Origin: an uncultured Vampirovibrionales bacterium
GTDB lineage: Bacteria; Cyanobacteriota; Vampirovibrionia; Vampirovibrionales; Vampirovibrionaceae
Assembly: GCA_964351765.1 (NCBI GenBank)
Contig: CAYGPY010000002.1
Coordinates: 1-36,289, forward strand
DNA length: 36,289 bases
Reading direction: 5' to 3'
Below the pieces are notes generated by a model, which saw only the letters and a list, made by a program, of their open reading frames with translations, did no database searches and had not been told where the DNA came from. The number at the start of each line of letters is the position of its first letter. Position 1 is the first letter of the stretch. Below, piece by piece: positions 13,043 through 36,289 of this stretch. A program made the position numbers and the translations under genes.

Positions 13043-13074
13043 ATCGATCTAAATTAAGGAACATACTTCATCTT

Positions 13075-13650: not shown

Positions 13651-13665
13651 GTCTCATTTACAACC

Positions 13666-14745: not shown

Positions 14746-15201
14746 ATGAGTATGCTTTACACAGAAAACACGCACGAATGGCAACAGGATTGTAGCACCG
14801 TGGTGCTAAATGAAATTGATATGCCGTTGCCGGCTTTTAACAAGCGTAAAACCAATAGCAAGGTCTTTTTAGTTTCTCGTTATTTCAGACGTCTGTTCGA
14901 ACAATCTCAGCACACTAAAAAATGCACTTATCTCGTAATACCTCCAATGAGACGCTTAGCAAAATTCTTAGGCGTTAATATCTCTCAAATTCAACATGCC
15001 TTAGAGGACTTATCAACCAAAGGTTATGCATACCGTATTGATATGAATACCAGTTACGTTCGTATCTGGGATCCGTTAACTGAAGAGTTTGAAACCGATA
15101 CAACACCACAAATTTGGAACTATCTAACACATTACATTACCAAACCGGGCACACCTTACAGCCCTGCGACAAATCGAGTGAATGCTATTCCAAAACTATA
15201 A
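14746..15201 (+). CDS. Stand-alone GntR-like winged-HTH protein with no effector domain (paralogue 1)
   Basis: The segment LVIPPMRRLAKFLGVNISQIQHALEDLSTKGYAYRI fits the GntR HTH pattern (LPS.R.LA..lgVS..tv..Al..L...G). It is preceded by ~55 aa and followed by ~50 aa with no recognisable ligand-binding domain. Confidence 0.55.
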   Translation: MSMLYTENTHEWQQDCSTVVLNEIDMPLPAFNKRKTNSKVFLVSRYFRRLFEQSQHTKKCTYLVIPPMRRLAKFLGVNISQIQHALEDLSTKGYAYRIDMNTSYVRIWDPLTEEFETDTTPQIWNYLTHYITKPGTPYSPATNRVNAIPKL

Positions 15202-15273: not shown

Positions 15274-15669
15274 ATGTCTATACAAGAAGAACCAAAAGAA
15301 AATTTAAACATCGATACCGGTAAGGTTAAGATACAGATGCCTTTACAAGAAATGCCTAACTTCCATGTCAGAAACTATGAGCAGCCACTTGCAGAGCAGA
15401 TTGCCTATTATATTGATAGAGCGCTGCAATGGAAGGCCACGCTTAAGTTTAGGAATCACTCGGTCATTAAAAAAGACAAGGTTGAGTTCATTCTGCCTTC
15501 AGTTAGAGTACTAGCAAACTTTTTCGTCTGCCCAATGTCTACAATAGTAAATGCCCTTGTTAACCTACGTGACAATGGCTACAGGTTTGAAGTAAAAGGG
15601 TTTGACCTCCCACTTCGTGTGGAGCCTGTACGTTCAATACAGACTATTCCCATCAAAAATAACATCTAA
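15274..15669 (+). CDS. Stand-alone GntR-like winged-HTH protein with no effector domain (paralogue 2)
   Basis: The segment FILPSVRVLANFFVCPMSTIVNALVNLRDNGYRFEV shows the same HTH pattern at the same relative position as in 14746-15201. AGGAG lies upstream of the ATG. Confidence 0.55.
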   Translation: MSIQEEPKENLNIDTGKVKIQMPLQEMPNFHVRNYEQPLAEQIAYYIDRALQWKATLKFRNHSVIKKDKVEFILPSVRVLANFFVCPMSTIVNALVNLRDNGYRFEVKGFDLPLRVEPVRSIQTIPIKNNI

Positions 15670-21845: not shown

Positions 21846-22850
21846 TTAAATTGAATCCACTATTTTTTTAAATGAGCTAAATGTATCATCAATAACCGCT
21901 TGTAAGTTATGCGTATTTTCAGGACACAATATAGGAAATGACGTTCTGCTAGATTGCACACGGAACTGAGTATCAACGTGAGGAGTATGTGCTTCTGAGG
22001 CAATAGTAATTATATTTCCATCCGCCTGAATAGGAATCGATTTCAAGCTGGAAATATTAAAGTGGGTTGATTCAAAATATAAGAAATAAGGGCTGTCTAT
22101 TTCATCTATCGTGCCACGCATAACATGGTAAAAAATCGTAAGCAAATCCTCTGAAAATCCAGGGAGTAGAACAAGTGCATCTAAATGAGGTTTGAGCGTT
22201 TCTTCTTTTGAAAACAGCCCAAATATATTTTGAACGTCAAAATGTTGGATAAACATAATACCGCTACATAAGCCTTCATAAAGATTATCCAGTTTCCCAC
22301 TTGTAATTTCACCTTCTAAGATGACGTCATAATTCAAATCAGTATCAATCACACTAAACCCTTTTAATACATAAGCAAGTATACCTATTTCGCGTTTAAT
22401 GTTTTTGTTGGTTTTTTGCATCACGTCTGCATCAAATCCAATACCTGCAGAAATAAAGAATGGTGTGTTATTCAAATGTGCGGGGTTCAATTGGCGCGTA
22501 TAGCCCTCAGTGATGATTTTTAATGCCTCTGGAATCGTTTCAGGGATATTTAGCATTTTTGCCAACAAATTACCTGTTCCCAATGGAATAAGTCCAATTA
22601 TTAATTTTTGATTCGAAGCATAAATATCCAAGGCCGTTTGAAGTGTCCCATCACCACCACAAACAATTAAAGTATCGATATGCGGATTTGTTTTAATATG
22701 AGCGAGTGTCATCTCAAGAGCAGCGCGTTCCGAATCTTCGACAACTAGCGTATAGCTATCCGTAGGCAATAAACGCTCGATACAAAGTTTTAAGAACGGG
22801 ATATCAGCACTACCCGCATGAGGGTTGGCAATAATAAGATAATGAGACAT
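21846..22850 (-). CDS. Diacylglycerol-kinase-family lipid kinase (YegS/BmrU-like)
   Basis: DAGK catalytic-domain motifs are present: IIANPHAGS, LIVCGGDGTLQTALD and LIPLGTGNLLAKML. Confidence 0.8.
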   Translation of the reverse strand: MSHYLIIANPHAGSADIPFLKLCIERLLPTDSYTLVVEDSERAALEMTLAHIKTNPHIDTLIVCGGDGTLQTALDIYASNQKLIIGLIPLGTGNLLAKMLNIPETIPEALKIITEGYTRQLNPAHLNNTPFFISAGIGFDADVMQKTNKNIKREIGILAYVLKGFSVIDTDLNYDVILEGEITSGKLDNLYEGLCSGIMFIQHFDVQNIFGLFSKEETLKPHLDALVLLPGFSEDLLTIFYHVMRGTIDEIDSPYFLYFESTHFNISSLKSIPIQADGNIITIASEAHTPHVDTQFRVQSSRTSFPILCPENTHNLQAVIDDTFSSFKKIVDSI

Positions 22851-23410
22851 GGAGACGAATAACCTATACTGTAACTATTTACTTTGCCCATTATATCCTT
22901 AAAACAAAAATGAGTACTTCATCGTTATTCATCCTTTTTTGAGTTAAAAAACAGGTTAATCCTATTTTAATGAGTGATGTATTTAGGTGTTCAAAGGCCA
23001 AAGAGAAATACTCTCTAAAATCAAAGCCGCTGAATGGCATGCAGCTCAATAGATATTGAGTTCCATAGTAATTGCATCCTTATAATGCAAAGCGATTTTC
23101 ACATTACAGCAAATCGTTGATTTTTGCTGTTAAAAATACAATGTTTACATTAATTATTTGTGCAAAAAAAACAGATTAATCATACGCACCAAGGTGACTA
23201 TAGAGGCATAAACAAATTACAATAAAAGGGAAGGATACATATATCTGCCTCAAAAGCTAAAGGTTTAGCAAGTTTTGCCGATATTACCTACATCAGTACC
23301 TAAGTACCTATTTCAATGGTGTTTTAATCAGGGTACTGAAAGCTTAAACACAATTTTCAGAAATCCAGTCAAGTCTAATATTACCAACCCTTCAGGTCGT
23401 TTTTATTTTT

Positions 23411-26400
23411 ATGGGTTATACACCTCGTAAACTAAAGCACACCTACCGTCGAGCAGTATCGGCGTTTTTAGCCATGTTGATTGTATTTACCTATAGCGCT
23501 GCAGGTGTTCTCACGGCTCAGGCACTACCAACAGGGTGGAACGTTGTTGAAGGTAACGTTTCTGTGGATATTACTGGTGATATTATGACCATTACCAGCA
23601 CCACGGATACAGCCATCATCAGCTACATCAGTTTTGATCTAGCCAATGGTGAAACCATCAACTTTATTATGCCTGGGGCCTCAAGTTCCATCATTAACCA
23701 AGTCATTGGTGGCAATATCAGTAACATTGCTGGAACCATTAACGCCAACGGTATTATTGGTCTTCAAAATACGGCAGGTATTCAAATTGCAAATTCAGCG
23801 CAAATTAATGCGGCTGCTTTATTAGCAACCACCCTCAACATTGGTAATTTTGATGGCAACAGTATTGGATTGATGAAAGACGCCGGTCAAGATGGTGCCG
23901 CCATTGTGAACGAGGGTGATATCAATGTTAGTAAATACGCTATTTTAGCAGGTTCTGGCATTGCTAACATGGGTAGCATTATTGCTGAAGATGGTACGAT
24001 TCACTTAGCCGTTGGTGATTCTATGACGTTTCACTTATCGGACAACCAAAGTATTTCAGTCACGATTGATGACGGTATTCAAGACACCATTGATGGTTTA
24101 AACGCCACAATTACTAACTCAGGCACAATGGAAGCGCATCAGGTTGAGTTAAAAGCCAAGCTTGCCGATCAGGTGATTGCCCAAGCCATTAACAACGATG
24201 GCGTGATTGAAGCCACGCAACTCAATAACAACGGCGGAACCATTGTTATTGAAGCCATCGGTGGCACACACACCGTTATGAATAGTGGTACCTTAATGGC
24301 CACAGGTAATGCCAATCAATCCGGCGGTGCCATTCATGTGCTGGGTCAAAACATTACTCACCAAGGTGCAACACTCGATGTAAGTGGTGGTACCGGTGGT
24401 GGTAACATCCTTATTGGTGGTGACTATCAAGGCAAGGGTTCCGTTCAGAATGCATTAAACACAACGATCGATGAAAATACTGCGATCAAAGCTAACGCCA
24501 CAAGTGCTGGTGATGGCGGACGTATCATTGTTTGGGCTGATGAGAGCACTGTATTTAAAGGTGATATTTCTGCCACCGGTGGTGCTGTCTCTGGTGATGG
24601 TGGCTTTGCAGAAGTTTCAGGTAAACAGGATCTATTATTCTCAAATTTAGCATCAGCTAATTTAACTGCAACTAATGGCTCTACGGGTACATTGTTGCTT
24701 GATCCAACCAATATTGATATTTATAATGGTGCAGGTACTGATACGGCCAGTGTGTTTTATGAACAAAACCTAGAAACTCTATCTTTAAGCAGTAATATTG
24801 TTTTAATGGCAGATGATAATATTCGTATGCGTAACCTAGCCGATAACGTTTTAGGTCTAGGCGCCAACGATATTACATTGACGACAACCAATTTAGATAT
24901 TTACTTTGATGATGTAAACGATACCATCCGAACTGAAGGCGGTAACATTAATATTACAGCCGGTGATGATATTCGTGTTGGCAGACTAAATACAACCGGT
25001 GCCGCTAGTAATGTGGCTGGTGGTGTTATTGATGTGCGAGCAAACCATGACTTGCAAATTCGAGGCATGAACGCCATTGCAGGTATTACCGCTATTGCTG
25101 ATAACAATAGCAACAATGTTGGTGAATTCCGATTGTATGCTGGTGATGATATCAATACGGGTGGATCCGCTCTAAATGTCCAAGGTGAATTGGTTCGCTT
25201 CTATGACGATGTGTCAACCAGTGGTGGAAGCATTACTGTATTAGGTGACCGTGCTGGTGATGGTACGGGCTTTATTGACTACGCCGCTACAGGAACCGAT
25301 ATTAGTTCAGGCGGTGGTACCATCACCATGACCGCCGATCGTATTTTAATGGATAGTGCCACAAGTACACTGTCTTCGGGTGGCGGTGATATTAACTTGA
25401 TTGATGATGGCGTCAATGACAACGAAGATATCCGTTTAAATAGTGATTTTGCACTTAGTGGACGCAATTTAACCGTGACCACGGCACAAGATTTTGAGAT
25501 GTATGGTACATCAAGCGTAAACATGACGGGTACCGTCTTAGTAAATGCCGATGACGATATTTTGGCCAACGGAAGCACCGTTGGTATTCAAGCAGCGGGC
25601 AATGTGATTTTAAACGCCGATGATGCATTAAACAGCGGTGATGTAACCAGCACAGCAGGTACCATTACTTTATCAGCCGATCATGATGCCAATGGCGTGG
25701 GTAATGCCACTATCTATACAACCACCGATTTAGATGCCAGTGGCAATGACATTACTATTTATGGTCAAACCATTACGTTAAGTAATACCGCAATGACAAC
25801 CAACGGCGGCAATATGTATTTATATGGTAACCGTGCTGGTGTTGGGGCTGGTGTTGTTGATTTTGGTACGAATGCCTTTATCACTACAGGTAATGCAAAC
25901 TTAACGATTCAGAGTGATCAAATGCATTTAGATGGTGGTGCGAGCAGTGGTATTAATGTGGGTACCGGAACACTAACCCTTACTGATAATGGTGCTATTG
26001 ATAACAACGACATTTTAATTAACGGTGGCTTTGCTATCACTGGCCGAAACTTAGTTGCCAACAGTAATCACGATATTAATTTAGCGGGTAACTCGACTAT
26101 CAATATGACCGGCACGATTAACATGAACGCGCTTGATGAGATTACGGCTCAGGGTGGTGATATGACTGCCACGGGTGATATAAACCTCACTGCTGGTGAT
26201 CATAACTATGTGCGTCAAGTGGTAACCACAACGGGTAACATTAACATCATTGCTGATAACAATAATGATGATGTGGGCAACTTTACTATTTATGATGGTA
26301 ATGATGTTGATACTAACGGTGGTAATTTAACCGTACGTGCTGAAAATATTATTATTGCCGATGATGTCTACACCGATGGCGGTAACATTATTCTTGAAGC

Positions 26401-29400
26401 GGATAAAAATAATAATGGTGTGGGATATGTTAACTTTGATACTGATGCCCGTTTGTTTACCACGAATGGTGATGCCACTTTGAGTGGTGACCGTTTGTTA
26501 CTTGATGGTGGTGCACTCAGTGGTATCTTTACCGGCACTGGTAACGTGATACTTACCGATGATGGTTCTACTGACAACGAAGATATTCAGTTGAATACTG
26601 GCTTTACTATCACTGGTCAGCAGATTACAGCCACTAGTAACCATGGCTTAAATATTTATAACAACTCCTCATTAAATTCAAACACCACAATCAGCCTAAC
26701 GGCTGCAACCGATCTCAACGCAAGCTCTGGTGATATGACAGCGGTTGGTAATATTGATGTTTTCTCAGGCAATCATCTCTATGTTAGAGGCGTGACAACC
26801 ACCACGGGTGACATTCAGCTTGTTGCTGATAATAACAACAGTAACGTGGGTAACTTCCGTATTTATGCGGGTACCAACCTCAACACCAATGGTGGTGACT
26901 TAACCGTTCGTGGTGAGAATGTTATTTTGGATGATAACATTGCCAGTGCCGGTGGTAACGTAACACTTGAAGCCGATAAAAATGGGAATGGTTCAGGTTA
27001 TGTTCAGTTCTTAAATAATTCTCAAATTAACACCGCCAACGGTCATGTAAATTTGAGTGGCGATAGATTGCTTTTATATGGCGGTGCAACCAGTGCCATT
27101 AATGCCGGTACAGGTAACGTAACGCTTACTGATGATGGTGCCACAGATAACGAAGATGTTTATCTTGCCAATGGATTCACCATTACCGGTAATCAATTAA
27201 TAGTAAATAGTAACCACGATTTTGAAGTGCGTGATCTATCGACGGTTAACATGACAGGAAACGTGACAGCAACTGCTAGTGATGATGTATTAGCCAATAC
27301 AGGTATTATTGGTTCAACGGGTGGTAATGTTCAACTCAATGCTAATGACTTAGTATACGTGGCTGAAGTAACCACAGGTGGTGGTAGTATTACCTTATCA
27401 TCAGATCACGATAATAATGGCGTGGGTAACTTTATTTTATATGACGGTAACAACATTGATAGTAATGGTGGTGCCTTATCTATTTTGGCTGAGAATATAA
27501 CAATTTACGATGATATTGATACCGATGGTGGTGTTATTACGTTAACAGCCAACCGAAACAATGCTGGTAATGGTACGTTTAACATTGAAGATAATATCAA
27601 TATTGTTTCAGGCAACGCCGATATTAACATCCGAGGTGCTGATATTGCTCTTGATGGTGTTGGTGGCGACGTTGGTGGTAGTATCAATTCGGGTACAGCC
27701 GATATTACAATTACAGAAAACGGTGTTACTGATAGCACCGATGTCTCGATTAACCGTGGCTTTGGTCTAATTGGTCGTAATATCACCATTGATAGTAATC
27801 ATGATATTGAACTCCATAATTCAGCAACCATAACAGCTTCGGGTACCGTTGACTTGGATGCTGTTGATGACATTTACTCGACTTCCGGAACCATTACCAG
27901 TGCGGGTAATATGACAGCCGATGCGGATGATTATATTCAATTAGAAAACGTAAGCGTAACGGGTTTAAACAACACCGTCTTAATGACAGCCAACAACGAT
28001 GTGCGTGTGGATAATGTAACCACCAATAGTGGTGATATTACTTTACGTGCCGATAAAGATGCCAACGGTGCAGGTAACTTCAGATTGTATGTAGGCAACG
28101 TGATTGATACCAATGGTGGTAACTTACGTCTTGAAGGGGAATATGTTCAGCTCGATGATAATGCGTTTGCCGATGGTGGTGATATTAATTTTATTGCTAA
28201 CCGAGACAATGCAGGTAACGGAACATTAACGCTAAACTCATCCTCAATCGATTCGGCCAATGGTGATATTACCCTTCAAGGTGCTGATATGTACTTTAAT
28301 GGTACAGGTGGTAACACCATGAGCGCAGGCACGGGCGATATTACCCTCATTGAAAATGGTAGTGTTGATACAACCGATTTGTACTTTACCAATGGCTATA
28401 CCGTAACAGGTCGTAATTTAACCGCAACCTCTAACCACGATATTGAAGTGCGCCTTGGGTCGCTTATCAATATGACAGGTACTGTCAATATGACGGCAGC
28501 TGATGATATCTTTGCTCAAGACGGCGACATTCGTGCCGCAGGTAATATTGACCTCTTTGCGGGTGACCATTTGTATACCCGTGAAGTGACCACAACAGCT
28601 GGTAATATCCAACTGGTTGCCGATAACAATAATGACAACGTGGGCAACCTAAGCTTTTATGCTGGTAATAATATCAATACCAATGGCGGTAATTTAACCG
28701 GCCGTGGTGAACTTGTGATTATTCAGGATGATATTATTTCTAATGGTGGTAACGTAACACTTGAAGGTGATAAAGCGGGTGACGGCACTGGCTATGTTGA
28801 TTTTTATAATGATGCTAGTATCACCACCGCTGGTGGTAATGTTCACCTGAGTGGTGACAGGTTGCTATTAGATGGCTCAGGTACGTCTGGTATTTCAGCC
28901 GGAGCCGGTAACGTTACCTTGATTGATGATGGTGCGACCAACAACGAAGACATTAGTTTAAACAATACGTTTACCATTACCGGTAACAATTTAACGGCCA
29001 CGTCTAACCACGATTTTGAAATGTATAACGATGCATCCGTAAATATGACAGGCACGGTTTTGGTTAATGCTGATTTAGATGTTGCCGCAAACTCGGGTGA
29101 TATTACCGCTGTGGGCAATATTACTTTAAATGGTGATGATGATGTTCGAGTTCGTGGTGTGGCCAGTACCAATGGTAACGTCACACTTTCTGCCGACACT
29201 GATGCCAGTGGCGTGGGTAGCTTTATTCAATACGCTGGTACCAACATTGCCGTAACTGGTGCCGGTAGAACACTTAGTATCTTGGGTGAAAACATTACGC
29301 TTTATGATGACTTATCTACCAATGGTGGTGTAATGACATTCACCGCAAACAGAAATAATGCGGGTGCAGGTACGTTTAACGTTGAAAGCAATTTAAACAT

Positions 29401-31513
29401 TACCTCTAACAACGCTAACATCAACATTAGTGGTGCTGATGTATTGCTTGATGGTGCTGGTGCTTTAACCGGTGGTGGTGTTAATTCTGGCACGGGTGAT
29501 ATCTCAGTTATCTCAAACAACCCTGCTGATGGTAATGATATTTTGCTGAACCGTGGTTATGGGCTAACAGGCCGAAACCTAACTATGAACTCCACATTTG
29601 ATGTTACGGGTTACAATGATTCAACCATTAATATGACAGGTACCGTTGATATCACAGCCGCTGATGATATTGATTTTAATGGATTGGATATTGTTGGTGC
29701 TTCTGCAATTACACTTAATTCGGGCGATCATATGAATTTCCGTGATATTACCTCAACAGGTGGCGGTAATATCACTTTAAATGCAGATTCAGATTCTAAT
29801 GATGTGGGCAACATCAACTTTGCTGCGGGTGATAACGTTATTACCAACGGCGGTGATTTAATAGCTCGTGGTGAAACCATTACATTAAGTGAGAACCTTA
29901 ATACCTTAGGTGGTGATGTAACTCTGAATGGAAACCGTAATTCGGGTGGTGGTAATGGCGTGATGGACTTTGCCAACAATGCCTTTATTAATTCTGGCAA
30001 TGGTAATGTCTTAATTACCGGTGAAAGCATGCACTTGGATGGCGGTTTAGCCAGTGGTATTGCTTCTGGCACAGGTGACATTACATTAACGGACAATGGC
30101 AACATTAACGGTAATGATATTTATATTCATCAAGGCTTTACAATGACAGGTCGTAATTTAACAGCAACAACCAACCATGATATTAATATGTATAACTCGA
30201 ACGACACCATTACAATGACCGGTGACGTTATTATGGATGCAGGTAGCACGATTGCCCTTCGAAATGTAATTGCAGGTGGCAACATTGGTATTGAAGCAGA
30301 TAGTAATATTAGGGTTTACAACAACGGCTTAACGGCAAATGGTAGCACAGGTTTAAATGGTGCTGCTGATGAAACATTAGCTGTTGTTAGTAAAGCTGGT
30401 AACATTATTGGTGATAATTTTATCACTACTGGTGCAGGTAACACACGTATTCAAGCCGGTACGTTTGATTCGATTACACCAACGTCTTATATTAACGTAA
30501 ACAACGTTCAGGCTAGTGGCAATGCAGCCTTTTACACCACCTACAGTGGTACCGGTAATGGTATTGTTGTCGATAGCAATAGTAGTGTTGCAGGCCACAT
30601 AACGGCTGCTGGATTAAATGCATCTAACTTCTGGCAAGGTGTTAACGGGGGCGTTGTGCTCGATATGGCTTCTGGAAATGCAAACACAGCACTTGTGTGG
30701 ACTAATAATGGTGGCGATATCAACGTAACTGCTCGCAACGGAAGTATCACTCAAGATTTAAGTTACGGTGCCTATGTAAATGGCAAAACGTTACGCGCCA
30801 ATGGCGCCAATGCCGATGTTAATTTACGCGCTTACGGCGGTGCTGGATCGTATATTAGCACCGGTGTGATGGCTCTTGGTGCTGGCTCCGATGTATTGGC
30901 CGAGGCCTTTGGCCAAAGTGGTGGTGGCACCTCTGTTCAGTTATTTGGACGTAGTGATGGTAACACAACTGTTCGCCGATACGGTGGCGGTGGTACTGAT
31001 GGCGATGTGTTCTTAGGTACAAATATTGGTGACCCACTCGATCTGAACGATGTGTATACCGTTTATGACACGTGGGGCAACGCCAATATTAACTCGTTAG
31101 GTGCTGTTCAAATTCACGGTAGTGTATTAGGCAATACCACTATTACTGCAACACGCTTTACAGGCCGGTACGATAAAGAAAATTTAAATGTCAGTAACAT
31201 CACCACAACCGGTGCTGGTGGCGTAGGTATCGATGCTCAGGTACTTCGAGGCAGAATTACAGGTAATAACATGAGTACCGCTGGCGGTGCCAACATGATT
31301 TTACAAGCGGGTAGCCAGTTCCCTCGTGACAAGATGAGTTATATCACGGTGACCAACGTCAACACATCAGGAAATCTAAGCATCAAAGTGGCTGGTAGTA
31401 CTACCGGTGATGGCTCAGGAAACTCTGTCGTTATTACAGGTTCCACAGGAGGTGGTACCACCGTTACCAATGAATCAGGTGGCGCAGCGATTGGCACGGT
31501 TACCACACCGTAG
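23411..31513 (+). CDS. Giant TPS-domain exoprotein (TpsA / filamentous-haemagglutinin-like), 2700 aa
   Basis: Basic and hydrophobic leader, then a TPS/haemagglutination-activity-type domain from about 23525. It reads LPTGWNVVEGNVSVDITGDIMTITSTTDTAIISYISFDLANGETINFIMPGASSSIINQVIGGNISNIAGTINANGIIGLQNTAGIQIAN. The motif GGRIIVWADESTVFKGDISATGGAVSGDGGFAEVSGK...GTLLLDPTNIDI follows. After that come tandem ~190-aa modules and a ~380-aa C-terminal module. No SD lies in front of the ATG. Confidence 0.9.
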   Translation: MGYTPRKLKHTYRRAVSAFLAMLIVFTYSAAGVLTAQALPTGWNVVEGNVSVDITGDIMTITSTTDTAIISYISFDLANGETINFIMPGASSSIINQVIGGNISNIAGTINANGIIGLQNTAGIQIANSAQINAAALLATTLNIGNFDGNSIGLMKDAGQDGAAIVNEGDINVSKYAILAGSGIANMGSIIAEDGTIHLAVGDSMTFHLSDNQSISVTIDDGIQDTIDGLNATITNSGTMEAHQVELKAKLADQVIAQAINNDGVIEATQLNNNGGTIVIEAIGGTHTVMNSGTLMATGNANQSGGAIHVLGQNITHQGATLDVSGGTGGGNILIGGDYQGKGSVQNALNTTIDENTAIKANATSAGDGGRIIVWADESTVFKGDISATGGAVSGDGGFAEVSGKQDLLFSNLASANLTATNGSTGTLLLDPTNIDIYNGAGTDTASVFYEQNLETLSLSSNIVLMADDNIRMRNLADNVLGLGANDITLTTTNLDIYFDDVNDTIRTEGGNINITAGDDIRVGRLNTTGAASNVAGGVIDVRANHDLQIRGMNAIAGITAIADNNSNNVGEFRLYAGDDINTGGSALNVQGELVRFYDDVSTSGGSITVLGDRAGDGTGFIDYAATGTDISSGGGTITMTADRILMDSATSTLSSGGGDINLIDDGVNDNEDIRLNSDFALSGRNLTVTTAQDFEMYGTSSVNMTGTVLVNADDDILANGSTVGIQAAGNVILNADDALNSGDVTSTAGTITLSADHDANGVGNATIYTTTDLDASGNDITIYGQTITLSNTAMTTNGGNMYLYGNRAGVGAGVVDFGTNAFITTGNANLTIQSDQMHLDGGASSGINVGTGTLTLTDNGAIDNNDILINGGFAITGRNLVANSNHDINLAGNSTINMTGTINMNALDEITAQGGDMTATGDINLTAGDHNYVRQVVTTTGNINIIADNNNDDVGNFTIYDGNDVDTNGGNLTVRAENIIIADDVYTDGGNIILEADKNNNGVGYVNFDTDARLFTTNGDATLSGDRLLLDGGALSGIFTGTGNVILTDDGSTDNEDIQLNTGFTITGQQITATSNHGLNIYNNSSLNSNTTISLTAATDLNASSGDMTAVGNIDVFSGNHLYVRGVTTTTGDIQLVADNNNSNVGNFRIYAGTNLNTNGGDLTVRGENVILDDNIASAGGNVTLEADKNGNGSGYVQFLNNSQINTANGHVNLSGDRLLLYGGATSAINAGTGNVTLTDDGATDNEDVYLANGFTITGNQLIVNSNHDFEVRDLSTVNMTGNVTATASDDVLANTGIIGSTGGNVQLNANDLVYVAEVTTGGGSITLSSDHDNNGVGNFILYDGNNIDSNGGALSILAENITIYDDIDTDGGVITLTANRNNAGNGTFNIEDNINIVSGNADINIRGADIALDGVGGDVGGSINSGTADITITENGVTDSTDVSINRGFGLIGRNITIDSNHDIELHNSATITASGTVDLDAVDDIYSTSGTITSAGNMTADADDYIQLENVSVTGLNNTVLMTANNDVRVDNVTTNSGDITLRADKDANGAGNFRLYVGNVIDTNGGNLRLEGEYVQLDDNAFADGGDINFIANRDNAGNGTLTLNSSSIDSANGDITLQGADMYFNGTGGNTMSAGTGDITLIENGSVDTTDLYFTNGYTVTGRNLTATSNHDIEVRLGSLINMTGTVNMTAADDIFAQDGDIRAAGNIDLFAGDHLYTREVTTTAGNIQLVADNNNDNVGNLSFYAGNNINTNGGNLTGRGELVIIQDDIISNGGNVTLEGDKAGDGTGYVDFYNDASITTAGGNVHLSGDRLLLDGSGTSGISAGAGNVTLIDDGATNNEDISLNNTFTITGNNLTATSNHDFEMYNDASVNMTGTVLVNADLDVAANSGDITAVGNITLNGDDDVRVRGVASTNGNVTLSADTDASGVGSFIQYAGTNIAVTGAGRTLSILGENITLYDDLSTNGGVMTFTANRNNAGAGTFNVESNLNITSNNANINISGADVLLDGAGALTGGGVNSGTGDISVISNNPADGNDILLNRGYGLTGRNLTMNSTFDVTGYNDSTINMTGTVDITAADDIDFNGLDIVGASAITLNSGDHMNFRDITSTGGGNITLNADSDSNDVGNINFAAGDNVITNGGDLIARGETITLSENLNTLGGDVTLNGNRNSGGGNGVMDFANNAFINSGNGNVLITGESMHLDGGLASGIASGTGDITLTDNGNINGNDIYIHQGFTMTGRNLTATTNHDINMYNSNDTITMTGDVIMDAGSTIALRNVIAGGNIGIEADSNIRVYNNGLTANGSTGLNGAADETLAVVSKAGNIIGDNFITTGAGNTRIQAGTFDSITPTSYINVNNVQASGNAAFYTTYSGTGNGIVVDSNSSVAGHITAAGLNASNFWQGVNGGVVLDMASGNANTALVWTNNGGDINVTARNGSITQDLSYGAYVNGKTLRANGANADVNLRAYGGAGSYISTGVMALGAGSDVLAEAFGQSGGGTSVQLFGRSDGNTTVRRYGGGGTDGDVFLGTNIGDPLDLNDVYTVYDTWGNANINSLGAVQIHGSVLGNTTITATRFTGRYDKENLNVSNITTTGAGGVGIDAQVLRGRITGNNMSTAGGANMILQAGSQFPRDKMSYITVTNVNTSGNLSIKVAGSTTGDGSGNSVVITGSTGGGTTVTNESGGAAIGTVTTP
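24900..30250 (+). repeat. Intragenic tandem array of about nine diverged 191-212-aa (573-636 nt) modules within the 2700-aa gene
   Basis: The in-frame anchor motif ([ST]-x-[HQF]-D after ...GRNLT..) recurs at 25481, 26063, 26636, 27209, 27794, 28430, 29003, 29591 and 30170. The spacings are 582, 573, 573, 585, 636, 573, 588 and 579 nt. One more copy lies upstream of 25481. Nucleotide identity between copies is only moderate by eye. Confidence 0.85.
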
Positions 31514-31646
31514 AATGGCTTTAAATAAAGCCAATCAGCCAGATAAGAGAATTAAAGTTCTGTCACTAGCTGCCGATACTTATTATGGTGATATATGTCC
31601 TTTTTAGGATGTATTACAGCCAATTATGCCGTTTCTAGTATCGTAA

Positions 31647-34565
31647 GTGGGTATTATGCCGTTAATACCAAAAAAATCAAGCACAAAGCTTGGTATCAAA
31701 CGATTTTGTCGTTTTCTTGCCAGTGCTATTGCGATGTTGATTGTATTTTCAGCATCGGCTTTTGCCCTGCCCACAGGTTGGAATGTGGTTGAAGGGAACG
31801 TGACGGTTGATATCACCGACAACATTATGACGATCACCAGCATCAGTGATCAAGCTATTATTAGCTACGTGAGCTTTGACTTGGCCAGTGGTGAAACCAT
31901 TAATTTTATTATGCCTGGTGCATCAAGCAGTATTATTAATAAAGTAATCGGTGGCAATATCAGTAACATCGCAGGATCCATTAACGCCAACGGAATTATC
32001 GGTCTTCAAAACACAGCAGGGATTCAGATTGCAAACACGGCTCAGATTAATGCCGCCGCCTTACTGGCCAGCACACTTAACATTGCCAATATGGACGCAA
32101 ACCGTATTGATCTAATGAAAGACCCCGGTACTAATAATGCCGGTATTTTAAACGAAGGTCAGATTGATGTAAGTCAGTTTGCCATTATTGCAGGCTCTGG
32201 CGTGGCAAATTTAGGTAGTATATTTGCAGATGATGGCACCATTCACTTGAGCGTGGGCGATAAAATGTCGTTCCATCTGAGTAACAACACCACCGTGGAT
32301 GTGGTGATTGATGAAGGTATTCATCAAGTTATTGGTAGCTTAAACACAGGCATTCACAACAAAGGGTTATTAGTCGGGCATCAAGTAGAACTTCGTGCTC
32401 GATTGGCGGACGAAGTTATTTCTCAAGCCATTAATCAAGACGGCATGATTCAAGCCACCCACTTAAACAACGAGGCAGGCTCCATTGTATTAAAAGCAGA
32501 GGGCGGCAATAATTTAGTCACCAACACAGGTATCTTATTTGCAGGAGCTTCAGCCAATGAAGATGGTAGATTAGCTACTACTAGTATTAATCAAGAAGCT
32601 GGTCGCATCACCATTCAAGGCACGGCAGCCTTGAACTCGGGCGTTGTGATTGCAACAGGGGGAATGAACGAAAAGGGCGGTACTGTTCACATGTTTGGTG
32701 ATACGGTCATTAATGATGGGTCGTTGATTGATGTATCTGGCGATATCGGTGGCGGTGAAGTCCTTATTGGTGGCGATTTTCAAGGTACAGGTGTTGCACC
32801 ACGAGCAACACTGAACGTGGCCTCTAACGATAGTATTGTCTTTGCCGATGCGATGAGTGAAGGTGATGGCGGGCGTGTTATTTTTTGGAGTGATGAAGAT
32901 ACCTTCTTTTCTGGTGGTATTTCAGCTCGCGGTGGTGTGCTTTCAGGTAACGGTGGGTTTGCTGAAGTATCGGGTAAAAAATATTTAGACATGCAGGGCG
33001 TTGCTGATTTAACGCCCGGTAACGATACAGGTGTTAAAGGAACGTTGTTACTTGATCCAACCAACATTAACATTGTGGAATTTGATCCCAATGATTTGAA
33101 TCCGGTACTGTGGCTAGACGGCAGTGACGCAAGTACCATTTCAACATCAGGATCCTTTGTTACGCAATGGCGCGATAAATCCGGCAATAATAATCACGCG
33201 AACCCACAAGCTGTCGCTAACCGACCACAAACAGGGGTAAGCAGCCTAAATGGAAACAATGTTCTTACATTTGATGGTGGTGATGATGTCCTAACGATTA
33301 CCGACCATGCTTCTTTAGATAACTCAAACGGTATGAGTTTCTTCACCGTCGTTACTCCCAAGGATAGTGATAGTAATCCTCGTGGCATCTTTGCTAAGCG
33401 TGTCAGCTCAGGTTCCCCAGCATCTCAATATGGCTATACACTTTTCTACTGGCACAGTAACCGACTTTATGCCGATTTTCATACGCAAAACAATCGATTT
33501 AACACGAGTAATGCTTACGCACCGAATAACACCTATATGCACTCAATGATTTATGACGGAACACAAACCAGTGCCCTTCGCATGAGCCTGTATGACAACA
33601 CCGTGCTCAATAGAAATGCCACGGAAAGTAGTGCAACGATTCCTGATACTGCAGCAAACTTTTACGTGGGCATGCTCAACTATAACTACGGCGCTGGCGG
33701 TCACTTGGGTGATATTGCTGAAATTCTCATTTACGGCTCGGCTTTAAACACCAATGATCGCTATTTGGTCAATCAATATCAAGCCGCCAAGTGGGGTCAA
33801 ACATTAGGGACGACACTAAATCAGTTTTCAGAAATTACCGATGGTTATTTAAAATACCTAACCGAAACGGCAGATGTGTCCTTACTTGCCGATCAAAATA
33901 TCACCATTGAAAATATGAGTGATAACTTACTGGATTTAGGAAACCGTAATCTAACCCTAACAGCCACCAACGGAAACATTGTATTTAACGATACCAATGA
34001 TGTGTTGCGCACTGAAGGTAGCAACATCACAATGACAGCCGGTGGCACCATGACTTTAGGCACCTTAAGCACGCGCGGAGCCAGTGGTGCATTAAACACA
34101 GGTAATGTACTACTCACCAACACAGCAACAAATAACATCACGTTAAACGGGGGTGCCGTTGGTGGAAATTTAACCGTTGATGGCTTTGCTGGTAGCCAAG
34201 TCGTTGTAAATAACACAACAGTGATTGGTAACACAGACATTGATATTAACGGCTCCAACGGTGATATAACCGGAACCGGCAATGTATTTACCGGAACCAG
34301 TCGACTAGACACCAACGATTATAACGGTGGAAACATCACAATGACCGGTAATTTTATTGGCGGTGTGGATCTTAACGGCGATCAACTTACCATCACGGAT
34401 ACCGTTGGTGATTTACTTGTCACAAATTTAATCAGTGGTTCACGCGTTGCAAACAGTGTTATTAGCGCCACCGCAGCAGGTGCTGATATAACCCTTAGTA
34501 CCTATGATATTGGTAGAGGTGGTGGTGGATATTTAGAAGACAATGCAAATGACAATGTTAACTAA
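31647..34565 (+). CDS. TPS-domain exoprotein paralogue, N-terminal 972-aa part, with an inserted LamG/ConA-like domain
   Basis: GTG at 31647 (or ATG at 31656). From 31767 the TPS domain is roughly 75-80% identical by eye to that of the 2700-aa protein. The shared GGFAEVSGK...GTLLLDPTNINI block is present. It ends at TAA 34563-34565, and the same frame reopens after a second TAA. Confidence 0.85.
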   Translation: MGIMPLIPKKSSTKLGIKRFCRFLASAIAMLIVFSASAFALPTGWNVVEGNVTVDITDNIMTITSISDQAIISYVSFDLASGETINFIMPGASSSIINKVIGGNISNIAGSINANGIIGLQNTAGIQIANTAQINAAALLASTLNIANMDANRIDLMKDPGTNNAGILNEGQIDVSQFAIIAGSGVANLGSIFADDGTIHLSVGDKMSFHLSNNTTVDVVIDEGIHQVIGSLNTGIHNKGLLVGHQVELRARLADEVISQAINQDGMIQATHLNNEAGSIVLKAEGGNNLVTNTGILFAGASANEDGRLATTSINQEAGRITIQGTAALNSGVVIATGGMNEKGGTVHMFGDTVINDGSLIDVSGDIGGGEVLIGGDFQGTGVAPRATLNVASNDSIVFADAMSEGDGGRVIFWSDEDTFFSGGISARGGVLSGNGGFAEVSGKKYLDMQGVADLTPGNDTGVKGTLLLDPTNINIVEFDPNDLNPVLWLDGSDASTISTSGSFVTQWRDKSGNNNHANPQAVANRPQTGVSSLNGNNVLTFDGGDDVLTITDHASLDNSNGMSFFTVVTPKDSDSNPRGIFAKRVSSGSPASQYGYTLFYWHSNRLYADFHTQNNRFNTSNAYAPNNTYMHSMIYDGTQTSALRMSLYDNTVLNRNATESSATIPDTAANFYVGMLNYNYGAGGHLGDIAEILIYGSALNTNDRYLVNQYQAAKWGQTLGTTLNQFSEITDGYLKYLTETADVSLLADQNITIENMSDNLLDLGNRNLTLTATNGNIVFNDTNDVLRTEGSNITMTAGGTMTLGTLSTRGASGALNTGNVLLTNTATNNITLNGGAVGGNLTVDGFAGSQVVVNNTTVIGNTDIDINGSNGDITGTGNVFTGTSRLDTNDYNGGNITMTGNFIGGVDLNGDQLTITDTVGDLLVTNLISGSRVANSVISATAAGADITLSTYDIGRGGGGYLEDNANDNVN
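33102..33797 (+). other. LamG / concanavalin-A-like lectin (Laminin_G_3-type) domain inserted in the neck of the second TpsA-like protein
   Basis: The start PVLWLDGSDASTISTSGSFVTQWRDKSGNNNHA and the end FYVGMLNYNYGAGGHLGDIAEILIYGSALNTNDRYLVNQYQAAKWG are the characteristic motifs of LamG-like jelly-roll domains in bacterial surface proteins. Confidence 0.7.
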
Positions 34566-34646
34566 ACCAAAGAAGCTTAACAATGGACTCTAGATGAACG
34601 TCTGGTTTTAAATTCAACCAACGGTGGCGACATTACCATCAATAAT

Positions 34647-36134
34647 ATGGTGACCTCTCAACAAATCGAAGCACGCTCGGCAGCCTATGCAGTAGGCACT
34701 GTGGCTAACGGCACCTACGTATCTACAAACGGGGGCGACCTAACCATTAACAATCTTAATTCCACCAGCGATGTGACTGTACTCAGTGGCATTAACAATG
34801 TGAGTGTGGGTAGCGGTGCTGGTAATGCTGTGGCAAATGTAAGGCATTTAAATTTAACAGCCACCGGTGATGCAATTGGGTACGGCTCGATAACAGGTAA
34901 CGTAGGTGCGACAGCAAGCAGAGTGTGGATGCATGATACCAACGGAGATCTTACATCCGTGGGCTTAAGTGCTTCAGGTGCATCGGGTTGGAATGGTGGT
35001 GCTGATGAAACGCTCGTTGCACAAGCCATTAATGGTGATATTAGAGGCGTAGGTTTCACCACAACAGGTGCTGGTAACATGCGCTTACAAGCTGGGTCCA
35101 CAGCCACACTGGGTACTGGTTATAGTGTGGATGTGACGAATGTTAGTGCCAATCAAAATGCAGAATTTCATTCCGCGGGTGCCGATGCAGGCGTTAGTAT
35201 TCGCGTGGGAGGTACCAGCAATGTAGGTGGTAATATCACAGCGACTGGCTACAATGCATCCAACCAGTTTGTTGGTACCACAGGTCGTGTGGATATCACC
35301 ACCACGAGTGGGAATATTGACACAGCCATGGTGTGGAGTGGTGAAGATATTTATTTAACCGCCAATAATGGAAGCATCACTCAAAATACAGCAGCCTATG
35401 GCACAGGCTATAACAACAGCAAAACTTTATACGCTGCCGATGACATTGTACTAACGGCTCAAGGTGCAGGCAGTTCCCATATTGACACAGGCGTACAAAC
35501 CTTAAGTACCACAGGTAACCTAACCGTACTGGCCAACGGTAGCACAGGTGGTACATCCATCCGCGTGATTGGGCGTGTGGATGGCAATGGTACATTTACC
35601 AACACCAGTAACGGAAATACACCAGGCGATATCTGGCTGGGCACATCATTAGGCGGGTCGGTAACCAACTTGGATGACACTAACCAAACCATGGATATTC
35701 GAGGCAATGTTGTTGCCAAATCAAACGGGACAGTTTATATGTATGGTGCCTTTGGTCTTGCGGGCACACTCGATATTATTGGTGATCGCATTGTGGCAAA
35801 TGCTGATAAGTGGAACTTAAATTTCACACGCGCTCAAACCACAGCTACCACAGGGAATGGTATTGACTTAACAGCCTATCGAGGTAACTTACTAGGTACA
35901 AACATCTCCACAGCGGGCAGTGCTAACATTGTTTTACAAGCAGGCAATTCACTTCCTCTGGACAAAATGACGCTTATAAATTTAAGCAGTGTTACCACGG
36001 CAGGTAACTTAAACGCAACGGCTTATGGAAGTAACACGGGCAATCAAACCGGCAATAGCATCACCATTACCGGTAGTACAGGTGGGAGCACAAGTACAAC
36101 ATCACATGTAAATGGTACCGTTAGCACACCCTAA
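34647..36134 (+). CDS. C-terminal part of the second TpsA-like protein (same frame as 31647-34565); probable fragment of a nonsense-interrupted gene
   Basis: The frame is open from 34581 and the first ATG is at 34647, with no SD and no signal peptide. The last ~380 aa are co-linear with the C-terminus of the 2700-aa protein. Shared landmarks are GADETL, TTGAGN.R.QAG, NGSITQ, ILQAG...DKM and ITGSTGG...GTV(S/T)TP-stop. Confidence 0.75.
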   Translation: MVTSQQIEARSAAYAVGTVANGTYVSTNGGDLTINNLNSTSDVTVLSGINNVSVGSGAGNAVANVRHLNLTATGDAIGYGSITGNVGATASRVWMHDTNGDLTSVGLSASGASGWNGGADETLVAQAINGDIRGVGFTTTGAGNMRLQAGSTATLGTGYSVDVTNVSANQNAEFHSAGADAGVSIRVGGTSNVGGNITATGYNASNQFVGTTGRVDITTTSGNIDTAMVWSGEDIYLTANNGSITQNTAAYGTGYNNSKTLYAADDIVLTAQGAGSSHIDTGVQTLSTTGNLTVLANGSTGGTSIRVIGRVDGNGTFTNTSNGNTPGDIWLGTSLGGSVTNLDDTNQTMDIRGNVVAKSNGTVYMYGAFGLAGTLDIIGDRIVANADKWNLNFTRAQTTATTGNGIDLTAYRGNLLGTNISTAGSANIVLQAGNSLPLDKMTLINLSSVTTAGNLNATAYGSNTGNQTGNSITITGSTGGSTSTTSHVNGTVSTP

Positions 36135-36289
36135 ACAATGAATATACTTTTATCAAAAACTTCTCTAATTTAATATAAATACAAAAGATAAAAGGTAAAA
36201 CATCTGGATGAAATGGTAGTTACATTTCTAAACTTGACTGCCCCCCGAAAGTTGATCAAGATCGAACTAGAGGAAATGATCATATCACA

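What the first reader, a model, noticed from the sequence alone, without database searches (positions are those of the whole stretch)
23411..36134. Tandem paralogous TPS-domain giant exoproteins with a shared head and tail but no TpsB/Omp85 transporter gene in 36 kb
Both genes open with a leader followed by a ~250-aa block that fits the two-partner-secretion (TPS) domain and is roughly 75-80% identical between the two by eye. Both then carry the same GG.I...W.DE.T.F.G.ISA.GG..SG.GGFAEVSGK...GTLLLDPTNI block. They also share a neck (ADDNIRMRNLADNVLGLGANDITLTT...RTEGGNINITAG versus ADQNITIENMSDNLLDLGNRNLTLTA...RTEGSNITMTAG). TpsA genes are normally adjacent to their FhaC/ShlB-type TpsB gene. Here the upstream side is a 560-nt non-coding leader and a divergent lipid kinase. 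Only 155 nt remain downstream, and no ORF in the window looks like a POTRA plus 16-strand barrel protein. The many synonymous differences between the two heads argue for an old, selectively maintained duplication. This is either an unlinked-transporter TPS system or a different export route for TPS-headed proteins.
Basis: partly seen in the sequence, partly recalled or inferred. Interest (0 to 1): 0.7.

Follow-up and report, generated by a model that had tools for sequence, protein, structure and literature searches.

The report
Tandem TpsA adhesin genes, transporter unlinked
Two neighbouring genes encode giant fibre-like surface proteins with a standard two-partner-secretion export head; their outer-membrane transporter gene is not next to them, which is a known if less common arrangement, and the second gene is broken by two stop codons.

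Summary
The observation largely holds. Both genes carry a true TPS secretion domain (Pfam PF05860 at 72.7 and 55.4 bits, cut-off 33.5). The predicted head fold matches the EtpA and HMW1 secretion domains. The genes also share a neck and a roughly 400-aa tail.

Two things were missed:
- The window is the entire 36,289-bp contig, so "no TpsB in 36 kb" says nothing about the genome.
- "Gene 2" is two same-frame ORFs (31647-34565 and 34647-36134) split by two in-frame TAA codons. These fall inside sequence that is uninterrupted coding in an orthologue and five other relatives.

The shared GGFAEVSGK...LLLDPTNI block is not special to this pair. It is the second half of an extended TPS domain found at 583 or more loci.

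In 80 surveyed loci of that head family, tpsB lies directly upstream in 59. Here the upstream neighbour is a divergent lipid kinase. In the small clade that also carries this tail, a relative has no tpsB within 10 kb on either side, and the gene 2 orthologue is followed by convergent, unrelated genes.

The best reading is a TpsA pair served by an unlinked TpsB. The tail is a rare, confidently modelled beta-solenoid with no solved relative, and it also occurs on proteins without a TPS head. Interest is modest.

The parts
21846..22850 (-). Divergent upstream neighbour: a diacylglycerol/lipid kinase family protein (334 aa). It is context only, and shows that no tpsB lies directly upstream.
   Evidence: PF00781 DAGK_cat at 73.8 bits.
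22851..23410 (.). 560-nt AT-rich non-coding region upstream of gene 1, presumably the promoter and 5' leader.
   Evidence: No ORF of 100 aa or more. No Rfam family at gathering score. Promoter-like and terminator-like matches are at chance level.
23411..31513 (+). Gene 1: an intact tpsA-like gene of 2700 aa. It is rich in Gly, Asn and Thr, has no Cys and has no VENN motif.
   Evidence: ORF. Composition and motif check. 82% identical to P0379 over 1592 codons, with omega 0.08.
23411..23527 (+). Gene 1 leader: a basic n-region plus a hydrophobic stretch ending AQA|LP. This is a Sec-type signal peptide by inspection.
   Evidence: Sequence. The structure model has a helix at aa 12-30 before the beta-helix begins at about aa 41. 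No signal-peptide predictor was run.
23528..24730 (+). Gene 1 extended TPS secretion domain (aa 40-440), of the HMW1/EtpA type. It includes the GDGGFAEVSGK...LLLDPTNI block.
   Evidence: PF05860 at 72.7 bits and TIGR01901. AlphaFold model pLDDT 88. Foldseek: EtpA 8cpk E 8e-24 with target TM 0.89, HMW1 2odl E 1.2e-20. phmmer against PDB: EtpA 3.6e-48.
24791..24970 (+). Gene 1 neck (LMADDNIRMRNLADNVLGLGANDITLTT...RTEGGNINITAG), shared with gene 2.
   Evidence: Local alignment with gene 2 aa 737 onwards, score 216.
24971..30277 (+). Gene 1 stalk: about 9 diverged repeats of roughly 191-212 aa each.
   Evidence: The S[NT][HF][DG] motif, mostly SNHD (STFD at 2061), recurs at aa 885, 1076, 1267, 1462, 1674, 1865 and 2061. 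No DNA-level tandem repeat was detected.
30278..31510 (+). Gene 1 conserved C-terminal tail module, ending ...IGTVTTP.
   Evidence: 42-45% identical to the gene 2 tail. Member of alignment A2.
31514..31646 (.). 133-nt spacer between gene 1 and gene 2.
   Evidence: Sequence. No terminator-like site was reported there.
31647..34565 (+). Gene 2, 5' ORF (972 aa): leader, extended TPS domain, LamG-like insert, neck and short stalk. It ends at the first in-frame TAA.
   Evidence: ORF. PF05860 at 55.4 bits. Collinear with the uninterrupted orthologue P0366.
31770..33074 (+). Gene 2 extended TPS secretion domain (aa 42-476), with an extra loop of about 31 aa relative to gene 1.
   Evidence: BLASTP against gene 1: 54% over 492 aa, E 8e-151. 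The TPS block is 71% identical at the amino-acid level.
33075..33881 (+). Gene 2 insert of about 270 aa between head and neck. It is probably a concanavalin A-like / LamG lectin domain, and is absent from gene 1.
   Evidence: The window copy has no Pfam or PDB hit of its own. Two of five orthologous inserts aligned with it hit PF13385 Laminin_G_3, best E 2.4e-6.
33882..34061 (+). Gene 2 neck (LLADQNITIENMSDNLLDLGNRNLTLTA...RTEGSNITMTAG).
   Evidence: Conserved in P0366.
34563..34580 (+). Two in-frame TAA codons (34563-34565 and 34578-34580) interrupting gene 2.
   Evidence: Sequence. They are codons 973 and 978 of the 1495-codon frame. The surrounding 240 aa are collinear with uninterrupted coding sequence in P0369, P0371, P0372, P0373 and P0377.
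34581..36134 (+). Gene 2 3' part: the rest of the stalk and the conserved tail, ending ...NGTVSTP. The first ATG is at 34647, and there is no leader peptide.
   Evidence: ORF 34647-36134. The last 400 codons are 79% identical to the orthologue, with omega 0.08. AlphaFold model of aa 66-495 of that ORF: pLDDT 92, pTM 0.92, all-beta. No PDB fold match, best E 0.31.
36135..36289 (.). 155 nt from the gene 2 stop to the end of the contig. It holds no recognisable gene start.
   Evidence: A 25-aa open frame at the very end has no Pfam hit. The contig length equals the window length.

Best explanation
The locus holds two old tandem paralogues of a TpsA-type (type Vb secretion) exoprotein from an uncultivated, sparsely sampled and probably diderm lineage.

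Shown:
- Each gene opens with a leader and an extended secretion domain of about 400 aa of the HMW1/EtpA kind, followed by a shared neck.
- Gene 1 continues with about nine 190-210-aa beta-solenoid repeats.
- Gene 2 carries a LamG-like lectin insert and a short stalk.
- Both end in the same conserved beta-solenoid tail, whose last residue is an invariant proline.
- As assembled, gene 2 is interrupted by two TAA codons. It would give a 972-aa tail-less product, unless the stops are assembly errors.

Inferred mechanism:
- The precursors cross the inner membrane through Sec.
- The unfolded TPS domain docks on the POTRA domains of an Omp85-family TpsB.
- The fibre threads through the TpsB barrel and folds outside as a long adhesin-like filament.
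- In gene 2 the lectin domain would sit near the head.
- The tpsB gene is not part of this locus. It lies elsewhere in the genome and probably serves both paralogues, as one TpsB is known to serve more than one TpsA in other bacteria.

The function of the tail is unknown. I favour a distal cap or binding module of the fibre.
For: - TPS domain: above curated cut-offs in both genes.
- Head fold and sequence: they match TpsB-dependent EtpA, HMW1 and HxuA.
- Selection on the head: purifying between the paralogues (dN 0.22, pS saturated) and against the orthologue (omega 0.13). The export module is therefore being maintained.
- Head family: its members normally sit beside a tpsB. Of 80 species-representative genome loci, 59 have tpsB directly upstream and 1 has it downstream. 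The partnership is thus the rule for this head.
- Window: no tpsB in the 23 kb upstream.
- Tail-bearing clade: no tpsB within 10 kb either side of P0368. Convergent, unrelated genes follow the gene 2 orthologue.
- Diderm hints: a Kdo-transferase gene on the syntenic relative contig L008, and a sub-threshold TolC-like C-terminus at the start of this contig.
- Literature: tps genes are usually but not always in one operon, and some TpsB proteins secrete more than one TpsA (PMC5422565).
Against: - No TpsB of this organism has been seen. Only about 110 kb of this lineage could be inspected (the window, L008, L089, L090 and L091).
- The window is a whole contig, and nothing is known beyond position 36289.
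- Both canonical TPS motifs have lost their proline (NPS to NIS, NPNG to NTAG). The change is conserved across the clade, so the interaction with a transporter may differ from the models.
- The same tail occurs on proteins without any TPS domain. The tail therefore does not depend on the TPS route.
- Taxonomy is unresolved. One family member is labelled a cyanobacterial MAG. The nearest named neighbour-gene hits are only 33-39% identical.
Confidence: 0.68

Rival explanations
1. This is a conventional tpsA-tpsA-tpsB operon cut by the assembly. The tpsB gene would start just beyond the contig end.
For: The contig stops 155 nt after gene 2. The order tpsA then tpsB exists in this head family: at L001 and L002 tpsB starts about 170 nt after the preceding gene (the TpsA itself in L002), and L031 also has tpsB downstream.
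Against: - The gene 2 orthologue in GCA_964352895.1 is followed by convergent methyltransferase-like and WbqC genes within 1.7 kb.
- P0368 has no tpsB within 10 kb downstream.
- Only 1 of 80 surveyed loci has tpsB visible downstream, although giant genes often run off the held DNA.
- The last 155 nt show no signal-peptide-like gene start.
Confidence: 0.12
2. A different export or anchoring route is used. The conserved tail, which is shared by TPS-headed and TPS-less giant beta-solenoid proteins, would be the module recognised by an undescribed outer-membrane pathway. The TPS head would be accessory or vestigial.
For: - The tail family is small, with 19 clusters at E below 1e-10 among 1.84 billion representatives.
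- It is always C-terminal and always ends G[ST][VT]x[TMIV]P-COOH, on both TPS-headed and TPS-less proteins.
- No tpsB is linked in the clade.
- The TPS motifs are altered.
Against: - The tail models as an ordinary beta-solenoid. It is not a barrel, and it has neither a terminal aromatic beta-signal nor a C-terminal transmembrane segment.
- The head is under strong purifying selection and is a full, well-folded TPS domain.
- No candidate transporter gene recurs next to these genes in the window, L090 or L091.
- A conserved distal domain of an adhesin explains the same facts more simply.
Confidence: 0.08
3. The locus is decaying. These would be non-functional remnants of a TPS system whose transporter has been lost.
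For: Gene 2 carries two in-frame stops inside conserved coding sequence. The gene 1 homologue in the related MAG is also called as two overlapping ORFs. No tpsB is nearby.
Against: - Gene 1 is an intact 8.1-kb ORF.
- Omega is 0.08 for gene 1 and 0.08 for the gene 2 tail against the relative.
- Stops and frameshifts in repetitive giant genes of MAGs are often assembly errors.
Confidence: 0.06

Closest known systems
EtpA (enterotoxigenic E. coli, etpBAC) and HMW1/HMW2 (Haemophilus influenzae, hmw1ABC): TpsA adhesins with an extended secretion domain
   Same: - The roughly 400-aa N-terminal secretion domain is homologous. phmmer gives EtpA E 3.6e-48 over aa 13-444 and HMW1 1.1e-23.
- The folds superpose, with target TM 0.88-0.89 and rmsd about 2.5 A.
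- Both are long beta-helical fibres that serve, or presumably serve, as adhesins.
- Both have a Sec leader.
   Different: - No tpsB (etpB/hmw1B) and no HMW1C/EtpC-type glycosyltransferase gene is adjacent.
- The prolines of both TPS motifs are replaced.
- The body repeats, the LamG insert and the C-terminal tail have no counterpart in EtpA or HMW1.
- No C-terminal cysteine pair is present, since the mature proteins have no Cys at all.
Unlinked or extra TpsA genes served by a TpsB encoded elsewhere (FhaS with FhaC in Bordetella; additional tpsA genes of Neisseria meningitidis)
   Same: A tpsA gene has no tpsB beside it, and several TpsA paralogues are presumably served by one transporter. The review PMC5422565 states that other genetic arrangements exist and that some TpsB proteins secrete more than one TpsA.
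   Different: In those cases the transporter is known. Here it has not been seen at all. Lack of linkage also seems to hold across a small clade, not just for an extra copy. The named examples come from my own knowledge plus the citations in the review.
The wider 'filamentous hemagglutinin N-terminal domain-containing protein' family with the G[DN]GGx[AV]EVSG motif
   Same: The whole 440-aa head aligns at 31-45% identity over about 90% of its length. The family spans Pseudomonadota, Nitrospinota, Verrucomicrobiota, Planctomycetota, a Sporomusa and others.
   Different: In 59 of 80 surveyed loci tpsB sits directly upstream on the same strand. Here a divergent lipid kinase does. None of the GTDB species representatives carries the tail.
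CdiA / contact-dependent inhibition toxins
   Same: A TPS head and a giant beta-helical body.
   Different: - There is no VENN or related pre-toxin motif.
- The C-terminus is conserved rather than polymorphic: 42-79% identity between paralogues and orthologues, and the same domain in 19 clusters.
- No small immunity-like ORF follows gene 1. The next gene is the second tpsA, 133 nt downstream.

Membership tests
TpsA passenger of two-partner (type Vb) secretion | N-terminal TPS domain (PF05860 / TIGR01901) above the curated cut-off | tested here: met
   72.7 and 55.4 bits against 33.5. TIGR01901 46.2 and 45.5 bits against 29.1.
TpsA passenger of two-partner (type Vb) secretion | Right-handed beta-helix TPS fold superposable on solved secretion domains | tested here: met
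   Model pLDDT 88.2, pTM 0.84. EtpA 8cpk E 8e-24 with target TM 0.89. HMW1, HxuA, FHA and HpmA follow in the ranking.
TpsA passenger of two-partner (type Vb) secretion | Conserved NPxL/NPS and NPNG(I) motifs of the TPS domain | tested here: inconclusive
   The Asn and Gly positions are kept (N113, N120 and G123 are invariant in A1). Both prolines are replaced: the window has GNISNI and NTAG where the family consensus has PS and NPNG. NTAG is conserved in clade members P0366, P0368, P0374, P0375 and P0381.
TpsA passenger of two-partner (type Vb) secretion | Sec-type signal peptide ahead of the TPS domain | tested here: met
   By inspection there is a basic n-region and a hydrophobic core ending AQA|LP (gene 1) or AFA|LP (gene 2). 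The model has a helix at aa 12-30. No dedicated predictor was available.
TpsA passenger of two-partner (type Vb) secretion | Cognate TpsB (Omp85 family, POTRA_2 plus ShlB barrel) encoded beside the tpsA gene | tested here: not met
   None in the window. None downstream of the orthologue. None within 10 kb of P0368. Adjacency is usual but not obligatory.
TpsA passenger of two-partner (type Vb) secretion | A TpsB encoded somewhere in the genome, and secretion that depends on it | not testable with these tools
   The window is the whole contig. The source genome is absent from the searchable genome and metagenome collections.
HMW1/EtpA subfamily | Extended secretion domain of about 370-440 aa | tested here: met
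   Alignment to EtpA covers aa 13-444. The fold match spans about 400 columns.
HMW1/EtpA subfamily | Adjacent HMW1C/EtpC-type glycosyltransferase gene | tested here: not met
   No glycosyltransferase family was hit by any window ORF scanned. A GT2 gene follows P0368 in L091, but that is a different family.
CdiA contact-dependent inhibition toxin | Pre-toxin (VENN-type) motif, a polymorphic C-terminal toxin and a downstream immunity gene | tested here: not met
   No VENN-like motif. The tail is conserved across paralogues, orthologues and 19 clusters.
Classical autotransporter (type Va) | C-terminal 12-strand beta-barrel translocator ending in an aromatic residue | tested here: not met
   The tail has no Pfam family. 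It models as a solenoid with no barrel match. It ends in Pro.

The most novel reading that the evidence does not exclude
In this little-sampled lineage, a family of giant beta-solenoid surface proteins shares a conserved C-terminal module of about 430-640 aa that ends in an invariant proline. The N-terminal export module is interchangeable (a TPS head or an unrelated Sec-only head), and the TPS-headed members are never linked to a tpsB. The most novel reading still open is that the tail, not the TPS head, is the handle for an undescribed outer-membrane export or anchoring system. TPS domains could then work, or persist, without a dedicated TpsB.
Probability: 0.08. Interest if true: 0.75.

Novelty: new variant of a known kind. 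Interest (0 to 1): 0.3.

Why it matters
If the main reading is right, this adds a deep-branching, uncultivated lineage to the list of bacteria that keep TpsA adhesin genes apart from their transporter gene. It also defines a rare, well-modelled C-terminal beta-solenoid domain with no Pfam family or solved relative, which travels with either a TPS head or a TPS-less head. That is useful for annotation and for thinking about modular evolution of giant adhesins, but it does not change how two-partner secretion is understood.

There is a practical point for annotation. HMMER's composition filter hid the TPS domain when the whole 2700-aa protein was scanned. It also hid the query's own 2700-aa parent protein (gene 1) in the homology search made with the 460-aa head. 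Giant repetitive TpsA proteins can therefore be missed or mis-annotated by standard pipelines.

Tried and rejected
- **Extending the window.** Exact-protein look-ups of three window proteins and of P0121 failed. Tail-protein scans of the genome and metagenome collections found nothing. A scan of the JGI metagenomes with the tail alignment also found nothing.
- **A false lead.** A Logan contig clustered with the SLH protein (L007) turned out to be an unrelated, eukaryote-like contig matched through a low-complexity stretch. It cost one look-up.
- **Taxonomy.** The ClpB-like protein has no homologue above 31-39% local identity (31% at comparable coverage) apart from itself. The M48 peptidase has one 56% relative and otherwise 33-39% hits to Omnitrophota and Desulfobacterota. 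The only label in the tail family is one "Coleofasciculaceae cyanobacterium" MAG. I leave the lineage unnamed.
- **RNA elements and signals.** Rfam and tRNA scans of the whole window found nothing. Promoter and terminator scans were at chance level, so nothing can be said about co-transcription.
- **DNA tandem repeats in gene 1.** None were found. The repeats are visible only at the protein level.
- **Direct hits for the gene 2 insert and the tail.** Pfam and PDB sequence searches gave none. The LamG assignment rests on orthologues.
- **A local double frameshift as the cause of the two TAA codons.** The +1 frame reads LTKPKKLNNG and one relative has LTKP at that spot. This is a four-residue coincidence and I do not rely on it.
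- **Tail as an autotransporter barrel, and CdiA-type toxin.** Both rejected on the model and on motif checks.

Full report
**What is in the sequence**

The region holds three same-strand ORFs: 23411-31513 (2700 aa), 31647-34565 (972 aa) and 34647-36134 (495 aa). The last two are in the same frame. They are separated only by two TAA codons at 34563-34565 and 34578-34580, and the sequence after the second stop still reads as protein.

Upstream lie 560 non-coding bases and a divergent DAGK_cat lipid kinase. Downstream, 155 bases remain.

**The head is a true TPS domain**

Pfam PF05860 scores 72.7 bits on the first 500 aa of gene 1 and 55.4 bits on gene 2, against a cut-off of 33.5. TIGR01901 also passes in both. 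Scanning the whole 2700-aa protein gave no hit at all. This is a filter artefact caused by the repetitive, biased body.

An AlphaFold model of aa 1-460, built on 39 homologues, reaches pLDDT 88 and pTM 0.84. It superposes on the following secretion domains:
- EtpA: E 8e-24, target TM 0.89.
- HMW1: E 1.2e-20, target TM 0.88.
- HxuA, FHA and HpmA further down the ranking.

By sequence, EtpA matches aa 13-444 at E 3.6e-48.

It is conserved family-wide: 353 database proteins match at 30-45% identity over most of the head, mostly about 80-100% of it. A scan of species-representative genomes with the motif G[DN]GGx[AV]EVSG found at least 583 loci across many diderm phyla.

One peculiarity stands out. 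Both classical TPS motifs have lost their proline here (NIS and NTAG where the family consensus has PS and NPNG), although the invariant Asn and Gly remain.

**The paralogues**

| Region compared | Result |
|---|---|
| TPS block, 251 codons | 71% aa identity, 69% nt identity |
| TPS block, substitution rates | pS 0.72 (saturated), dN 0.22 |
| Head, 492 aa | 54% identity |
| Neck | local alignment score 216 |
| Tails, about 400 aa | 42-45% identity |

The two bodies differ. Gene 1 has about nine protein-level repeats of 191-212 aa. Gene 2 has a 270-aa insert directly after the head. The window copy of that insert has no hit of its own, but two of five orthologous copies hit Laminin_G_3 at E 2.4e-6.

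**The window is the whole contig**

The self-hits of four window proteins all sit on a single NCBI contig of 36,289 bp, which is exactly the window length. The absence of tpsB "in 36 kb" is therefore an assembly boundary, not a statement about the genome. I could not find the source genome or a close relative in the genome or metagenome collections.

**How unusual is the gene order?**

In homologues with long contigs, a ShlB/POTRA_2 gene sits immediately upstream (L003-L006). In L001 and L002 it starts about 170 nt after the gene that precedes it, which in L002 is the giant TpsA itself.

I built a TpsB HMM from those genes, iterated it, and applied it to 80 loci from species-representative genomes:
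- 59 have tpsB directly upstream on the same strand.
- 1 has it downstream.
- 20 show none in the DNA held. Of these, 17 have at least 2.4 kb of upstream sequence.

The upstream order is thus the rule, and the window belongs to the roughly one-quarter minority without it. No ORF of the window scores against this HMM, even without filters.

**The tail defines a small clade, and that clade is unlinked**

An exhaustive phmmer search of the 495-aa tail ORF against 1.84 billion representatives found only 19 clusters below E 1e-10. In all of them the match is at the extreme C-terminus. All of them, and both window proteins, end in G[ST][VT]x[TMIV]P, with the proline invariant.

Family members with a TPS head:
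- P0366, P0368, P0374, P0375 and P0381 have full TPS heads (387-441 bits against my head HMM).
- P0366, P0374, P0375 and P0381 also have the LamG-like insert.
- P0379, an N-terminally truncated fragment, is 82% identical to gene 1.

Family members without a TPS head: P0369, P0370, P0372, P0373, P0376, P0377, P0382, P0383 and P0384 have a signal peptide and a different beta-helical N-terminus, with no TPS hit.

Gene context in relatives:
- In MAG GCA_964352895.1, a gene 1-like gene is followed by the start of a gene 2-like gene (L089).
- In the same MAG, the complete and uninterrupted 1264-aa gene 2 orthologue P0366 is followed by convergent methyltransferase-like and WbqC genes (L090).
- P0368 sits in a 34-kb contig with 10 kb held on each side and no ShlB/POTRA_2 gene, either by the precomputed Pfam hits or by my HMM.

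Lack of linkage looks like a property of this clade.

**Gene 2 is interrupted**

The read-through translation is collinear with P0366 from leader to last residue (59% identity). P0366 lacks about 230 aa of stalk, and this is the segment that contains the stops. The same segment aligns collinearly with uninterrupted coding sequence of five other family members.

The part after the stops is 79% identical to the orthologue, with omega 0.08. It has no leader of its own. The interruption is therefore either recent or an assembly error. As assembled, the product would be a 972-aa tail-less TpsA.

**The tail fold**

With 16 sequences the model reaches pLDDT 92 and pTM 0.92, and it is all-beta. Foldseek finds nothing significant in the PDB. 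The best match has E 0.31, and only beta-solenoids appear among the weak hits. There is no Pfam family and no PDB sequence match.

It is not a barrel, has no terminal aromatic residue and has no transmembrane segment. There is also no VENN motif, and the mature proteins contain no cysteine. This argues against a CdiA-type toxin and against an HMW1-type disulfide anchor.

**The organism**

Neighbour genes have only distant homologues. The one 56% relative of the M48 peptidase lies on a contig with the same YbjQ-YbjQ-M48 order and a Kdo-transferase gene. The first partial ORF of this contig looks like the C-terminus of a TolC-type protein, but below threshold (E 0.005). An SLH-domain protein is also present, and one tail-family member is labelled a cyanobacterial MAG. 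A diderm envelope is likely, but the lineage is not settled.

**Mechanism and verdict**

*Shown:* two TpsA-type genes with a maintained export head, no adjacent tpsB here or in clade relatives, an interrupted second copy, and a rare conserved tail that is also found on TPS-less proteins.

*Inferred:* Sec export, recognition of the head by an unlinked TpsB that serves both paralogues, and folding into a surface fibre, with a lectin domain in gene 2.

Unlinked arrangements, and one TpsB serving more than one TpsA, are described in the literature (PMC5422565). I therefore rate this a variant of a known system, at confidence about 0.68.

Rival explanations:

| Rival | Confidence |
|---|---|
| tpsB lies just past the contig end | 0.12 |
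| A tail-dependent, undescribed route | 0.08 |
| A decaying locus | 0.06 |

Interest is about 0.3. The surprising-sounding part of the finding comes mostly from the contig boundary and from a known minority gene order. The clade-wide lack of linkage, the altered TPS motifs and the new tail domain are real but modest novelties.

Noticed in passing
window 7747-12441 (-): A third giant beta-solenoid protein (1564 aa) with a signal peptide, no Pfam family and no TPS domain. Its first 280 aa or so are 28-34% identical to the N-termini of TPS-less members of the tail family (P0373, P0382, P0384). It lacks the tail itself and ends ...NGALVY.
   Followed up: partly
window 23411-31513 (method note): Pfam on the whole 2700-aa protein returned no family, yet its first 500 aa score 72.7 bits for TPS. 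In the homology search made with the 460-aa head of gene 1, the 2700-aa gene 1 protein itself (P0241, which is in the collection) was missing, and every listed hit was under 800 aa. HMMER's composition filter apparently drops giant repetitive proteins.
   Followed up: partly
window 3-239 (+, frame 3, cut by the contig start): [quoted passage not shown] The match is below threshold (E 0.005, 17.1 bits against 22). It is a hint that the organism has an outer membrane.
   Followed up: partly
window 2620-5814 (-): A 1064-aa AAA+ protein with a ClpB-like D2 module (AAA_2, ClpB_D2-small) but an atypical N-terminal half carrying a P-loop / ResIII-like region. Apart from itself, its homologues reach only 31-39% local identity, and about 31% at two-thirds coverage.
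   Followed up: no
window 12707-14481 (+) and L008 9013-10828: A YbjQ, YbjQ-like and M48 peptidase gene trio. It is syntenic with a Logan contig from sample SRR24075716 (M48 56% identical) that also carries a Kdo transferase and MutS. The same sample yielded the tail-family locus L091.
   Followed up: partly
window 19524-20828 (+): A secreted SLH-domain protein (two SLH repeats, 96.8 bits) with an Asn-rich linker and a C-terminal glycine-zipper-like segment. The low-complexity linker caused a spurious cluster with an unrelated eukaryote-like contig, L007.
   Followed up: partly
L089 2-1258 and 1255-6033; L089 6292-6597; L090 100-3894: In the related MAG GCA_964352895.1, the gene 1 homologue is called as two ORFs that overlap by 4 nt. 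The assembly also breaks inside or next to the TPS heads of both paralogues. This suggests these loci are hard to assemble, and that frameshifts or stops in them may be artefacts.
   Followed up: partly
window 14746-15201 and 15274-15669 (+): Two adjacent small ORFs (151 and 131 aa) that look like paralogues of each other by eye. The first has a weak winged-helix (GntR/TrmB-like) match and the second has no Pfam family.
   Followed up: no
L091 15380-16105 (+): A family-2 glycosyltransferase gene lies 73 nt downstream of the TPS-headed, tail-bearing gene P0368. It might be a glycosylation partner, by loose analogy with HMW1C/EtpC, but it belongs to a different GT family and has no counterpart in the window.
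   Followed up: no
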